NCBI GenBank assembly: GCA_963514005.1
Contig: OY740792.1
Coordinates: forward strand, 27,430,765 to 27,468,000
Source: Raja brachyura
Lineage: Eukaryota
Direction of reading: 5' to 3'
Length of the DNA: 37,236 nucleotides
The position numbers and the translations under genes were made by a program. This document shows, piece by piece, positions 10,592 through 22,522 of this stretch. Each line of letters starts with the position of its first letter. Position 1 is the stretch's first letter. Under the pieces are notes generated by a model that ran no database searches, was not told the DNA's origin, and saw only the letters and a list, made by a program, of their open reading frames with translations.

Positions 10592-10687
10592 AAAGGACAC
10601 AGTGCTGGAGTAACTCAGCAGGTCAGGCAGCATCTTTGGAGAACATGGATAGACAAAGTTTCGGGTTGAGACCCTTTTTCATACTCA
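10592..10687 (-). mobile_element. Solo Penelope pLTR
   Basis: GTGCTGGAGTAACTCAGCAGGTCAGGCAGCATC...TTTCGGGTTGAGACCC. Confidence 0.7.
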
Positions 10688-11832
10688 GGAATATTTTTTA
10701 TTTGTAACAACTCGGGAAAATTGAAATATTTTTTAAAATACTAGAAAATATTTAAAATCCATTCAATGCACTTTAAATTAACAGAAGGAGAAAAGTATAA
10801 ATTACTTGAAACTTACCATTCTCCCTTCCAACTATTCATCTCCATTGAAATGAACGAAGTCACTGAACCTGCGCATGGTTTAAGTGAACACTGGTCAGGT
10901 AGCAGATTCCCTAATGCAGATGCTCAGAAACTGAGAAGCTAAAGCTGCACCACTAGACTCCAGTGTTGAAGTGCAGTAGAGGTGGTGCTGGTCAGCCATT
11001 GATGTTAAGAACTATTGCACTTCGACACATTCACATGAAAGCCTTTGACATCTCCCACCATCATCCCCCCCACCCCCACCTCTTGCCATGTTTATAGACT
11101 TACATAGAATAGTACAACAAAGTAACAGGCCCTTTGGCTCACCATGTGTGTACTAACCATAAGACCATGATGTCAATTTAACTAATTCCACCTGCCTACA
11201 CGTAGTCCACATCCCTCTATTTCGTCCATATTTGTGTGTCTGTCAAATGTCCCTTAAACATTCCTTTCTTACCTGCTTGCACCATCTCCCCAGGCAGCTC
11301 GTTGCAGACATCTTCCAATTCTAGGGGGAAAAAAACCTGCCTTACTGTCTCTTTTCAACTTTTTCTTTCCAGTCTTAAACAAATGTCCTCTAACATTTGA
11401 CATTTTCCACCATAGTCTGACTATGTGGAGTTGCACCACAAAATCCCTCTGTACATCAATGATCCCAAGGGTCCTGTCATTTACTGTGCACTTTCCTCTT
11501 GCATTTAATCCAGCAAAATTCATCAACTTCTCTTGTCCAGAATTAAAGGCAGAGATAGATAGATTCTTGATTAGTGCGGGTGTCAGGGGTTATGGAGAGA
11601 AGGCAGGAGAATGGGGTTGGGAGGGAGAGCTAGATCAGCCATGATTGAATGGCGGAGTAGACTTGGTAAGTTTCAAGTAATTTCCAATTTTCTCCTTTGG
11701 TTAATTTAAATGCATTGAATGGATTTTAAATGTTTACTGATATTTTAAAAAATATTTCCATTTTCCCCGAATTGTTAACAAATAAAAATATTTCTGAGCA
11801 TGACGAAGGGTCTCAACCCGATTTGTCGTCTA
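10650..11832. repeat. Inverted repeat pair of about 170 bp: 10650-10818 and 11664-11832
   Basis: AATTACTTGAAACTTACCA (10800-10818) pairs with TGGTAAGTTTCAAGTAATT (11664-11682); TTTAAAATCCATTCAATGCA pairs with TGCATTGAATGGATTTTAAA; TCGGGTTGAGACCC pairs with GGGTCTCAACCCGA. Confidence 0.92.
11095..11535 (-). mobile_element. Degraded, internally deleted CR1 3' fragment
   Basis: ORF 11269..11526 has TVNDRTLG..DVQRD and RGHLFK remnants; CR1-type tail near 11100-11150. Confidence 0.65.
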
Positions 11833-11870
11833 ATGGCCTAATTTTGCTCCTGTCACTTATGACCTTATGA
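11545..11870 (+). mobile_element. Short CR1 3' end whose tail is interrupted by the inverted insert
   Basis: KAEIDRFLISAGVRGYGEKAGEWG, then GATCAGCCATGATTGAATGGCGGAGTAGACTTG [insert] AATGGCCTAATTTTGCTCCTGTCACTTATGACCTTATGA. The uninterrupted tail is seen at 29880-29945. Confidence 0.85.
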
Positions 11871-12369
11871 GATCTGACACTGGATTATAAGCTATGGAGA
11901 AAGACTGAGACTCTGAGATTATGTGGCTTTAGAAGAAGGTGTCTGATTGGTGTTTATTGCAGTATTTGTTCAGGAAAAATTCATCTGAAATATAATTATT
12001 TTTGTAAAACTACGCAGTATCTCAGATTCATTGTAGTTTGTTTGTTATACTTGAAGACTCTGTGGTAATAGTTGCAATATTACTTTCCAATTATAACAGT
12101 CAATATATGATCTCTCTCCATAATGTGCATGTTATGAAGCAAAGTGGAGAAGTATACATCCCTCTGAAATATTATCATTTGCACTCATATAACACAATCT
12201 CACAGTAGCTATTAGGCCCATTGTTAGCTCAATTTCTATTTTTCTGATCTTCCCTTAAAGCCATATCATTTACTTACAATGGAGGTAAGAACTTTTTATT
12301 GTATCTGTGTGCTATTCAGAACTTTAAACATGGCACGATTTCTGTCAGATAGGCAAATAGACATATGAG

Positions 12370-19722: not shown

Positions 19723-20564
19723 GTCTATGAAACTACTGGATAGTTTTAAAAACCCATCTGCTTTATGAATGTTCTTTGGGATTGAAATCTGACACCCCTA
19801 CTCTGTCCAGCAGATATTAAATTCCAACCTACAGCAACGCTGTTGGCTTTCAATGGCTCAGCAAGCTGCTTAGTTCAGAGGAAATTGAGGATAGATTAAA
19901 AAATGGGACAGCAGAAGGTAAAATCTTGAGGAAAAAAAATACAAATTCTGGGGGAACTCTTTCTGATGGAGCAGGAAATGGCTGCTAGAAACTGGTGAGG
20001 GAAAGAGGTGCGAAATGAACTGGTGAGTGATAGGTGATTGAAGATGAGGAGGGATTGACTGATAGGTGAGACAGGTGGGAGAGTGGAGGGTGGAGATAAT
20101 AATGAAGGCTGAAGAACAAAGGGTGAAGATCATTGAAGCTAATAAGAAAGGAGGATGCATAGTGAAATGTAAAACCGGAGGGGGAAATTGTGACTAGAAA
20201 GGAATGGGAGGTTGAGAAGAAAAATACAGAACACGGAGCAGGGAGATGAGTGGAAGGAAGAGGTAGAGGAAAGGAAACTAACTGTGTGATGGGAGTGGGA
20301 GAACTAGAAAGAAAGATGTTCACAGGCAGGGGGAGGAAGATAAAGTTATACTAAGGAAACGATGATGTCAGTACGCCTAGTCTGTCAAAGCCTCTGTACA
20401 GCAGTGAGACAACAGTGCAGTACAATCTCACAGAGGCATCTGTCTAGATTTACTACTGACATTAGGGTTAGAATTTTGTCTTCCATCACATCTGCTAAAC
20501 ATGCACAAATCTTTGCAGGGTAAATCTGAACTCAAGTGTTTCCACAAAGGGAAGCTGCCTCCTG

Positions 20565-20920
20565 TGAGTGGGCGATATCACTCGTGCCTCTGAACCAGTA
20601 GGTGTTATTCAATCACATCTTAAAGGACCTAGTTACACAACCCAAGCTGATACTCCAGTGCAGGGTTCAGGGTACAATGCGTAGATAGAGGTGCCATTGT
20701 CGGCATGGCACATCAATCTGGAGCCCTGTTTCACAATAGCAAATAACACATCCCCTGCATGTATTCTTCAACCTCTGAAACAGGCGATCTTATGTTGTAT
20801 TTGGAGCTAGCTCTGTGACAAATTAGCCACCGTGTATCATGCTGTCAATGGTGACTACTCTTCACAAGTGCTTCATTGGTTGCAAAGTCCTGAGGGAAAC
20901 CCCGAGGCTGTGACAGGGGG
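20565..20920 (+). mobile_element. Deu-SINE-like (SacSINE1-like) element
   Basis: GCCTCTGAACCAG head, GCTGATACTCCAGTGCAG...GAGGTGCC, tail GTGACTACTCTTCACAAGTGCTTCATTGGTTGCAAAG. Confidence 0.6.
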
Positions 20921-21441
20921 AGTACCATTCTTTCTTATATTCCTGACATACTGTTTGCAGGCATTAAAGTATCACGAGACAACTGTGCATGATTTTCCAC
21001 ATACAGATTTCCAAGGAAAGGATACCTAATTTTCCAAATTTACAAAGTACCTTTCTACATACAAGAACTTGGCTAATGCACCCTTACATAGTACATTGAA
21101 ATGATACATTCTGTCAAAAATAGTGTGGGATTGTTCATTTCAAAGTAAAAATTGAACTGACAAAAATAAAGCAGGCTTAACCCATTCACGGGTGATAGGA
21201 AAGTATCTGCTTAGAGTGAAGAGAATGCAAGGGTTGAATTGTCTCTGGTTATCTTTGACATTGGAGTTATTAATTTTTGAATTTCTCAAACAATGAAAGA
21301 AGTAATTTCTGTTTGATGGAAGAAAATCTTCATGATAGGAATGATTTGGCTCGATAATACTGTATATTTGGGTCATAAATATGACATAGTCAAATTGTTA
21401 TTTTTGTATTTTATTATGATGCAATTTTATTTTGAATTATG

Positions 21442-22522
21442 AACATAGAAACATAGAAAAATAGGTGCAGGAGTAGGCCATTCGGCCCTTCGAGCCTGCG
21501 CCGCCATCACCGGCAAAGAACAGCCTGAACTGTTCTTACAAGTGAAGTTGTTCTTCATTAATTTAATATGTTCCCTGTCATTAAGGGGATATCTGCTGGC
21601 AGATACTGCGGAGCAATTGTAAACAATTATATCCAAGTACATACTTCCTCCCAGAAGTCGGAATATCTGGGCGTGGAAATGAATATCAAATATTCCAATA
21701 GAAACAAAGAAAAATAGGTGCAGGAGTAGGCCATTCAGCCCTTCGAGCCTGCGCCGCCATTCAATATGATCATGGCTGATCATCCAACTCAGTATCCCAT
21801 ACCTGCCTTCTCTCCATACCCCCTAATCCCTTTAGCCCCAAGAGCCACATCAAAATCCCTCTTGAATATAGCCAATGAACTGGCCTCAATGACCTTCTGT
21901 GGCAGAGAATTCCAGAGACTCACCACTCTCTGTGTAAAGAATGTTTTCCTCAACTCGGTCCTGAAGGAATTCCCCCTTATCCTTAGACTGTGACCCCTTG
22001 TTCTGGACTCCCCCAACATCGGGAACAATCTTCCTGCATCTAGCTTGTCCAACACCTTAAGAATTTTGTAAGTTTCTATGAGATCCCCCCTCAATCTTCT
22101 AAATTCCAGCGAGTACAAGCCGAGTCTATCCAATCTTTCCTCATATGAAAGTCCTGACATCCCAGGAATCAGTCTGGTGAATCTTCTCTGTACCCCCTCT
22201 ATGGCAAGGATGTCTTTCCTCAGATTTGGAGACCAAAACTGTACGCAATACTCCAGGTGTGGCCTCACCAAAACCCTGTACAACTGCAGTAGAACCTCCC
22301 TGCTCCTATACTCAAATCCTTTCGCTATCAATGCTAACATACCATTTGCTTTCTTCACTGCCTGCTGCACCTGCATGCCTACTTTCAATGACTGGTGTAC
22401 CATGACAGCCAGGTCTCGTTGCATCTCCCCTTTTCCTAATCTGCCACCATTCAGATAATAGTCTACCCTCATGTTTTTGCCACCAAAGTGGATAACCTCA
22501 CATTTATCCACATTATACTGCA
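21442..22522 (-). mobile_element. Composite insertion: CR1 3' 820 bp, 190 bp copy of the 14044-14235 flank, then a second 65-bp CR1 tail
   Basis: 21506-22522 is the reverse complement of 13220-14235. 21442-21507 reads ATGGCGGCGCAGGCTCGAAGGGCCGAATGGCCTACTCCTGCACCTATTTTTCTATGTTTCTATGTT on the minus strand. Confidence 0.95.

What the first reader, a model, noticed from the sequence alone, without database searches (positions are those of the whole stretch)
10650..22522. Shared architecture suggests a CR1-linked local inverted duplication mechanism
Two events of different age and CR1 subfamily within 12 kb share one layout: CR1 body, inverted copy of nearby genomic DNA, then the terminal 40-65 nt of the CR1 tail, with 1-2 nt microhomology. 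In both the switch lies in or next to the tail stem-loop region. CR1 needs its own 3' end for priming, so classical L1-style 3' transduction should be unavailable. Prime-on-tail-then-switch would be a way around this and a source of inverted repeats. This is my best candidate for an undescribed process, but it rests on two cases.
Basis: inference. Interest (0 to 1): 0.85.

Follow-up and report, generated by a model that had tools for sequence, protein, structure and literature searches.

The report
Inverted DNA copies inside CR1 tails
Two retrotransposon copies in a skate-like fish genome each carry a flipped copy of nearby DNA near their 3' end; both are real but differ in geometry, and look more like known break-repair copying than one new retrotransposon mechanism.

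Summary
Both structures exist. A: a ~165-nt CR1 remnant (+, 11543-11870) interrupted by an 87%-identical inverted copy of 10652-10818. B: a CR1 copy E2 (-, 22522-21442, 5-nt TSD) holding the tail and 192 nt of 3' flank of the older neighbour E1 (98%), then a second 66-nt tail. The shared layout is only partly true. A's donor lies 5' of its element and B's lies 3'. B's donor is itself a same-subfamily CR1, and B's body-side junction is probably long homology, not microhomology: E2 looks like a mosaic with about 550 nt copied from E1. A's element is so short that a tail location is weak evidence. Most likely, host repair of a broken CR1 copy or insertion intermediate made both: fold-back templated insertion in A, homology-started and microhomology-ended copying in B. 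Tail-primed cDNA switching remains a serious option for B alone (tract and insertion are coeval within error), but fits A poorly. Close kin are in print for L1, L2 and MMBIR; I found no report for CR1 tails. No eukaryotic genome was available, so the decisive genome-wide test was not run.

The parts
10590..10687 (-). Fragment of a multi-copy Penelope-like repeat with a decayed hammerhead-like motif (family label and motif recalled; Rfam gave no hammerhead hit); overlaps one end of donor A
   Evidence: no family match
10652..10818 (-). Donor of event A: 36 nt of the repeat plus about 130 nt of AT-rich DNA with only one other copy in the window
11543..11663 (+). Event A: 5'-truncated CR1 piece (end of ORF2, 3' UTR, 5' arm of the outer tail stem)
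11664..11827 (+). Event A: inverted copy of 10652-10818, 87% identical
11828..11870 (+). Event A: terminal CR1 tail piece; first 4 nt ambiguous; starts in the loop of the inner hairpin; no clear TSD seen
12377..14043 (+). E1: older 5'-truncated CR1 with RT domain (Pfam RVT_1), frameshifts and full tail
13479..13662 (+). Tract in which all 11 E1/E2 differences are synonymous
13663..14235 (+). Inferred donor tract of event B (start between 13663 and 13687): E1 3' end, tail and flank
14044..14235 (+). 192 nt of E1's 3' flank, duplicated in E2 with 5 differences
21442..21446 (.). Target-site duplication AACAT at E2's 3' end (also matches the tail repeat)
21442..21507 (-). E2 terminal tail piece, 66 nt, with whole stem-loop and repeats; keeps the CpG that E1 and the internal tail have lost
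21506..21697 (-). Copy of E1's 3' flank inside E2
21698..22079 (-). E1-derived CR1 3' end and internal tail of E2 (inferred)
22080..22522 (-). E2's distal body, probably from another source element of the same subfamily; 5' truncation
22522..22526 (.). Target-site duplication AACAT at E2's 5' end (1 nt shared with the element)

Best explanation
Two unrelated events of local templated copying by host DNA repair, each at a break near the 3' end of a CR1 copy or of its insertion intermediate. Event A: after the 5' junction existed, the CR1 was broken in its tail hairpin. The body-side 3' end folded back about 850 nt onto its own flank, copied about 165 nt (hence inverted) and was rejoined to the tail piece with loss of 4-8 nt (MMBIR or alternative end-joining type). 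Event B: E2 inserted by ordinary target-primed reverse transcription (TSD). At or soon after insertion, a sense-strand end in its body invaded the 97%-identical inverted neighbour E1, copied through E1's tail and 192 nt into the flank, and was joined by microhomology to the other end, which held only 66 nt of CR1, too little for easy re-annealing. Shown: the structures, junction sequences, donor sides, TSD and the distribution of differences. Inferred: mosaic origin of E2 (about 75%), direction of synthesis, timing and enzymes.
For: Donor sides differ, and a cis fold-back gives an inverted copy in A only from the body-side end (inference). In B, 12 of 18 E1/E2 differences in 13222-13709 are synonymous (P 5e-5 to 2e-3). 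Six non-consensus residues are shared by E1 and E2 only from 13687 on (0 of 147 against 6 of 96 codons, P 0.003). [quoted passage not shown] Homology explains why the donor is the nearest same-subfamily CR1; a chance landing there is about 1-7%. It also predicts visible products near element ends (inference). Local inverted duplications with microhomology are a common class without retrotransposition: 277 with median 284 bp in human genomes (PMC12350158, passages) and germline MMBIR-type insertions (PMC8421209, passages). A third local duplication in the window (direct, 31266-31365, 71%) is outside CR1.
Against: Both inverted cases are in CR1 tails, which fill about 2.5% of the window (post hoc P about 0.002). 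In B the tract (0.8% per lineage, CI 0.36-1.5) and E2's own decay (0.6%, CI 0.07-2.2) are coeval, as co-insertional copying predicts. E1 alleles run continuously about 300 nt 5' of the break, which repair must explain by a gap or by mismatch correction. The synonymous differences cluster in one 184-nt tract (P 4e-4 against the segment before it), so a further boundary near 13478 is unexplained; without that tract the mosaic evidence is P 0.03. The six shared residues could mark an unsampled sub-subfamily: only one close relative (P0121) was on hand, and it differs from both states at one of the six. A's CR1 part could not be dated.
Confidence: 0.45

Rival explanations
1. Mixed origin. B is tail-primed: the 66-nt cDNA folded back on the resected primer-side flank, primed at the 7-of-8 match near 14237, copied E1's flank and 3' end, then returned to the CR1 RNA by homology, or ran on along E1 to the truncation point. 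A is host repair as in the best explanation.
For: Donor on the primer side; terminal piece has all priming signals; TSD; coeval ages; a continuous E1 tract is natural if the other partner is RNA. A cDNA fold-back after 6.3 kb of resection with 2-bp microhomology is proposed for L1 (PMC11702581, passages).
Against: Needs about 7.2-7.8 kb of resection and a landing just 3' of a same-subfamily CR1 (1-7%). Six sites with a 7-of-8 match lie within 10 kb on that strand, among them E1's own tail.
Confidence: 0.25
2. One reading: in both events the RT primes on the tail, stalls at the stem-loop, the cDNA copies local DNA in inverted orientation and returns to the RNA.
For: Same order of parts; both breaks within 66 nt of the 3' end; 2 of 14 tail-like sites in the window have a local donor. 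Both terminal pieces start at an ATGGC-type motif on the 3' side of a small hairpin. L1 templated insertions are ascribed to cDNA leaving the RNA (10.1101/2024.08.27.596794, passages).
Against: A's donor is on the 5' side, where exposed single-stranded DNA would give cDNA a direct copy, not an inverted one (inference). Breaks are 21-26 columns apart, one inside and one past the stem-loop. A is about 168 nt long, so its tail location has P 0.39. Junction types differ. L1 templates lie typically within 15 bp of the site.
Confidence: 0.17
3. The tail hairpins are break hot spots (single-strand or cruciform cleavage during second-strand synthesis or later), and host repair fills them with local copies. 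This can hold together with the best explanation.
For: A breaks in the inner loop, B at the base of an upstream hairpin arm; the tail at 29880-29900 has lost about 11 nt ending at the same motif as B's break.
Against: Three cases, chosen after the fact. The E1 and E2 tails fold no better than shuffles (z -0.07 and -0.93); only the 29.9-kb tail does (z -3.1).
Confidence: 0.12
4. The second template was local RNA: a read-through transcript of E1 in B, and a hammerhead-cleaved transcript of the donor in A.
For: Both inserts are in the sense of a plausible transcript. A's copy ends about 3 nt past the position equivalent to hammerhead cleavage (position recalled). An L1 co-insertion of a nearby pre-mRNA is reported once (PMC10191854, passage).
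Against: Donor and copy of A share a change in the first base of the hammerhead core, so the ribozyme was probably dead when copied (core motif recalled). No transcript data. Two switches needed in each case.
Confidence: 0.06
5. Assembly artefact.
For: The window has a 154-N gap elsewhere.
Against: Copies differ by 2-13%, with structured differences, a TSD and unique flanks on both sides.
Confidence: 0.02

Closest known systems
[quoted passage not shown] 2016, PMC5104497; abstract and one results section seen)
   Same: Event B: homology at one junction, copying past the end of homology, microhomology join to the second end.
   Different: Ectopic inverted CR1 donor 7 kb away in a germ line, not a sister-chromatid reporter; direction of synthesis not shown here.
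MMBIR-type templated insertions and local inverted duplications (PMC8421209, PMC12350158, PMC7025897; passages seen)
   Same: Event A: inverted copy of nearby DNA with a small loss at the site; size near the 284-bp median of human inverted duplications.
   Different: Template is 846 nt away (the MMBIR search covered 100 bp); microhomology blurred by 13% divergence; lies inside a CR1 tail.
L1 templated insertions and 5' fold-back inversions (10.1101/2024.08.27.596794, PMC10191854, PMC11702581; passages seen)
   Same: Local genomic DNA copied into a LINE insertion; 52-220 bp inverted duplications of the 5' side; long fold-backs with microhomology.
   Different: Those templates lie typically within 15 bp or at the 5' junction; here they are 0.85 and 7.2 kb away and internal, next to the tail.
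Flank-derived 5' extra nucleotides of zebrafish ZfL2-2 (PMC4245944; abstract and passages seen)
   Same: A LINE of the L2/CR1 group whose inserts copy flanking DNA during integration.
   Different: Short, and at the 5' junction.
Tail-primed CR1 template switch to another RNA (PittSINE origin, PMC5729268; passages seen)
   Same: Proposed prime-on-CR1-tail-then-switch step.
   Different: Second template is a tRNA, no return to the first template, no local DNA.
Recombination of L1 cDNA intermediates by homology (PMC13526784, abstract seen; chimeric L1s of Gilbert et al. 2005, recalled, not held)
   Same: A new LINE copy exchanging sequence with homologous DNA around the time of insertion.
   Different: First-strand cDNA invasion runs towards the donor's 5' end and cannot by itself bring in 3' flank.

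Membership tests
CR1 LINE insertion by TPRT (E1, E2) | RT-bearing ORF2 of the CR1 clade | tested here: met
   Pfam RVT_1 E 5e-24; 84-91% to named skate and ray proteins, further hits in sharks, birds and turtles; the clade label CR1 itself is recalled
CR1 LINE insertion by TPRT (E1, E2) | 3' hairpin followed by a short tandem repeat | tested here: met
   folding energy not above shuffles for E1 and E2
CR1 LINE insertion by TPRT (E1, E2) | Short target-site duplication and 5' truncation | tested here: met
   E2: AACAT at both ends; not examined for E1; none clear for A
CR1 LINE insertion by TPRT (E1, E2) | Endonuclease domain | not tested
   copies are 5'-truncated
Classical L1-type 3' transduction | Element followed by its source's 3' flank | tested here: met
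   E2 holds E1's tail plus 192 nt of flank
Classical L1-type 3' transduction | Priming at the end of the read-through RNA, whole insert from one source | tested here: not met
   insert ends in a second CR1 tail with a different CpG state; distal body probably from another source
L1-type templated insertion during integration | Template typically under 250 bp and within 15 bp of the site | tested here: not met
   846 nt and 7.2 kb away; B tract about 550 nt
L1-type templated insertion during integration | Copy made in the same event as the insertion | tested here: inconclusive
   B coeval within error; A undatable
MMBIR or alt-EJ templated insertion (event A) | Inverted copy of a nearby template | tested here: met
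MMBIR or alt-EJ templated insertion (event A) | Microhomology at both junctions | tested here: inconclusive
   about 2 nt on the body side; tail side ambiguous by 4 nt
MMBIR or alt-EJ templated insertion (event A) | Dependence on host repair polymerases | not testable with these tools
   needs genetics
[quoted passage not shown] | One junction in long homology | tested here: inconclusive
   favoured at P 0.003-0.03, resting on six residues and one close relative
[quoted passage not shown] | Tract runs past homology and ends in microhomology | tested here: met
   192 nt of flank, exact AT, nearby 7-of-8 match
[quoted passage not shown] | Synthesis started from the homologous end | not testable with these tools
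   the product is the same in either direction

The most novel reading that the evidence does not exclude
CR1 insertion intermediates are unstable at the tail stem-loop: the short tail-primed cDNA, or a break there, recurrently copies DNA up to several kb away in inverted orientation and then resumes. This would give a LINE that needs its own 3' end a route to move neighbours' 3' flanks and to seed local inverted repeats in CR1-rich genomes.
Probability: 0.2. Interest if true: 0.68.

Novelty: new variant of a known kind. Interest (0 to 1): 0.38.

Why it matters
CR1 dominates the genomes of cartilaginous fish, birds and reptiles, and is thought to need its own 3' hairpin and repeat. If tail-linked local copying were recurrent, CR1 could duplicate neighbouring DNA and create inverted repeats without classical transduction, and the breakpoint profile would show where RT or second-strand synthesis fails. 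If the repair reading is right, B is a clean germ-line fossil of homologous recombination ended by microhomology between two LINE copies. It also warns that apparent CR1 '3' transductions' can come from ectopic conversion. One genome-wide count separates the two readings.

Tried and rejected
Hammerhead-cleaved RNA as template for A: made unlikely by a shared change in the core motif of donor and copy. Rfam at E up to 1 gave two chance miRNA-like hits and no hammerhead. E2 as a plain whole copy of E1 with no other source: disfavoured by the synonymous excess and the distribution of shared residues, though whole copy plus later conversion is not excluded. Assembly artefact: rejected on divergence, TSD and flanks. 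Dating A's CR1 part: failed, stored relatives only 52-71% identical. The members of the relatives' clusters could not be listed, so whether the six shared residues mark a sub-subfamily stays open. Gilbert et al. 2005 is not held and is cited from recall only. Seven literature searches on CR1, LINE or non-LTR terms listed no paper whose title or abstract start describes local inverted copies inside CR1 tails; most subscription papers and all supplements were unseen, so this is not proof of absence. The prokaryotic genome collection was not scanned, being irrelevant; viral and metagenome collections stayed unchecked.
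Full report
Setting. The window is vertebrate DNA rich in retrotransposons. It lies between a WW-domain exon near 290-415 and a claudin ORF at 31732-32445. The RT of the CR1 copy at 12377-14043 (E1) is 86-91% identical to named little-skate proteins and 84% to a devil-ray protein, so the source is skate-like.

Event A. A 169-column inverted match joins 10652-10818 to 11664-11827 at 87%. The copy sits between a CR1 piece at 11543-11663 and a tail piece at 11828-11870, which are 80% and 89% like the tail at 29805-29945. 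Alignment shows 4-8 nt of tail lost, with the break in the loop of the inner hairpin. The original spans the edge of a multi-copy repeat and 131 nt with only this one partner in the window, so 10652-10818 is the donor. It ends 846 nt 5' of the insert. The body-side junction has about 2 nt in common; the tail-side junction is uncertain by 4 nt. The whole CR1 part is about 168 nt, so any break inside it falls in the last 66 nt with P 0.39. Its age could not be estimated.

Event B. E2 (minus strand, 22522-21442) matches 13220-14235 over 1017 columns at 97.3%. That includes E1's complete tail and 192 nt of E1's 3' flank; a second tail piece of 66 nt follows. AACAT flanks the unit at both ends, so the outer ends look like a normal insertion. 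The tail-side junction shares exactly AT, and 3 nt further the donor matches the first 8 nt of the tail piece at 7 of 8 positions; such a match within 7 positions has a chance near 0.002. E1's tail and the internal tail share a CpG loss that the terminal piece lacks. This is one marker and it recurs independently in another tail, so it is supportive only.

E2 is probably a mosaic. Of 18 differences between E1 and E2 in 13222-13709, 12 are synonymous (P 5e-5 to 2e-3), and all 11 in 13479-13662 are. This is the mark of descent from different source elements. Residues were then compared with the relatives of at least 78% identity among 230 stored proteins (22-23 used for the main pieces) and with the closest one, P0121. 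Six residues that depart from the majority and from P0121 are shared by E1 and E2 at 13687 or later, and none before (0 of 147 against 6 of 96 codons, P 0.003). The simplest reading is a tract copied from E1 from about 13663-13687 to 14235. Against this: the synonymous differences cluster (1 in 257 nt before the tract, P 4e-4); with that tract set aside the contrast is 0 of 86 against 6 of 96 (P 0.03); E1 itself has no private change there (P 0.04); and the six residues could belong to an unsampled sub-subfamily. I put the mosaic at about 75%. E2's own decay is 0.6% (CI 0.07-2.2) and the tract's 0.8% per lineage (CI 0.36-1.5): the same age within wide error.

Geometry (inference). A broken end that is resected exposes its own strand, and folding back on it yields an inverted copy of DNA on the same side. 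In B the donor lies on the primer side, so the tail-side end (cDNA or a later break) could be the primer. In A the donor lies on the 5' side, so the primer would be the body-side end, which exists only once the 5' junction is made; cDNA annealing to the exposed strand there would give a direct copy. In B the alternative direction, from body to flank, starts on 97% homology and explains the choice of donor. A start on microhomology reaches the 600 nt behind a usable CR1 only 1-7% of the time.

Window census. Fourteen tail-like sites (13 elements; four are SINE-type or uncertain; three weak motif hits were dropped) were tested for a local donor within 400 nt 5' of the hairpin. Two of 14 had one, the two events; the rest hit only repeats or nothing. 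Nine two-copy segments were listed: these two, six that look like dispersed repeats, and one direct 100-nt duplicate of the claudin 5' coding region outside CR1. Two of three local duplications in tails has P 0.0015 with 12 tails as entered (13 changes it little), but the window was selected for this. No genome-wide count was possible.

Comparison with print. L1 templated insertions copy under 250 bp, typically within 15 bp of the site (10.1101/2024.08.27.596794, passages). 5' fold-back inverted duplications of 52-220 bp occur in about 0.3% of somatic L1 insertions, and one co-insertion of nearby pre-mRNA is reported (PMC10191854, passages). A cDNA fold-back after 6.3 kb of resection is proposed in PMC11702581 (passages). 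Zebrafish L2 inserts copy flank at the 5' junction (PMC4245944, abstract and passages). A tail-primed CR1 switch to a tRNA is proposed in PMC5729268 (passages). The CR1 hairpin requirement is stated as a hypothesis in PMC8665684 (passages). Homologous recombination that ends in microhomology is shown in PMC5104497 (abstract and section 7), and homology-driven recombination of L1 intermediates in PMC13526784 (abstract). Local inverted duplications are common without retrotransposition (PMC12350158, PMC8421209, PMC7025897; passages). A 2026 CR1 survey has no hit for 'transduction' or 'template' (PMC13343379, term search). Searches listed nothing on this structure in CR1 tails; supplements and subscription papers were not seen.

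Verdict. Host repair of two different kinds is the best reading (0.45). Tail-primed switching for B alone is close behind (0.25). One CR1-specific mechanism for both is possible (0.17). It works like known templated-insertion and aborted-recombination processes, but fails the strict distance and position criteria of the L1 classes, so I rate it a new variant of a known kind, interest 0.38.

Noticed in passing
window 13479-13662 against 22263-22080: All 11 differences are synonymous while neighbouring segments have almost none: a second mosaic boundary near 13478, from recombinant source elements or a later conversion.
   Followed up: partly
window 29880-29900: CR1 tail lacking about 11 nt; the loss removes a small upstream hairpin and ends at the motif where event B's tail piece begins.
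   Followed up: partly
window 31266-31365 and 31773-31882: Direct 100-nt, 71% duplicate of the start of the claudin coding region about 500 nt upstream; not in a CR1.
   Followed up: no
window 16826-17680: Penelope-like element (GIY-YIG-like reading frame, label recalled; no Pfam hit) nested in an old CR1, with an apparent 11-nt target duplication read by eye and an internal repeat of its terminal part.
   Followed up: no
window 2790-2945, 27383-27576, 34070-34223, 30158-30260: Short Penelope-like fragments with self-inverted ends; the first interrupts a CR1 body. These form the window's other inverted repeats.
   Followed up: no
window 10652-10660 and 11820-11831: The copy in event A ends about 3 nt past the position equivalent to hammerhead cleavage in the repeat, though the core looks dead in both donor and copy.
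   Followed up: yes
window 3244-4316, 4317-5940, 18338-19425, 24551-25587: Four copies of a purine-rich repeat family with hairpin-and-CTAG-like ends (Helitron-like, label recalled); two lie in tandem.
   Followed up: no
window 11085-11545 and 11875-11950: Event A's element is wedged between an older minus-strand CR1 remnant and a very decayed plus-strand CR1-like piece (read by eye).
   Followed up: no
window 290-415 and 31732-32445: WW-domain first exon (WWC-like) and single-exon claudin; the arrangement recalls the WWC3 and CLDN34 neighbourhood (recalled, not tested).
   Followed up: no
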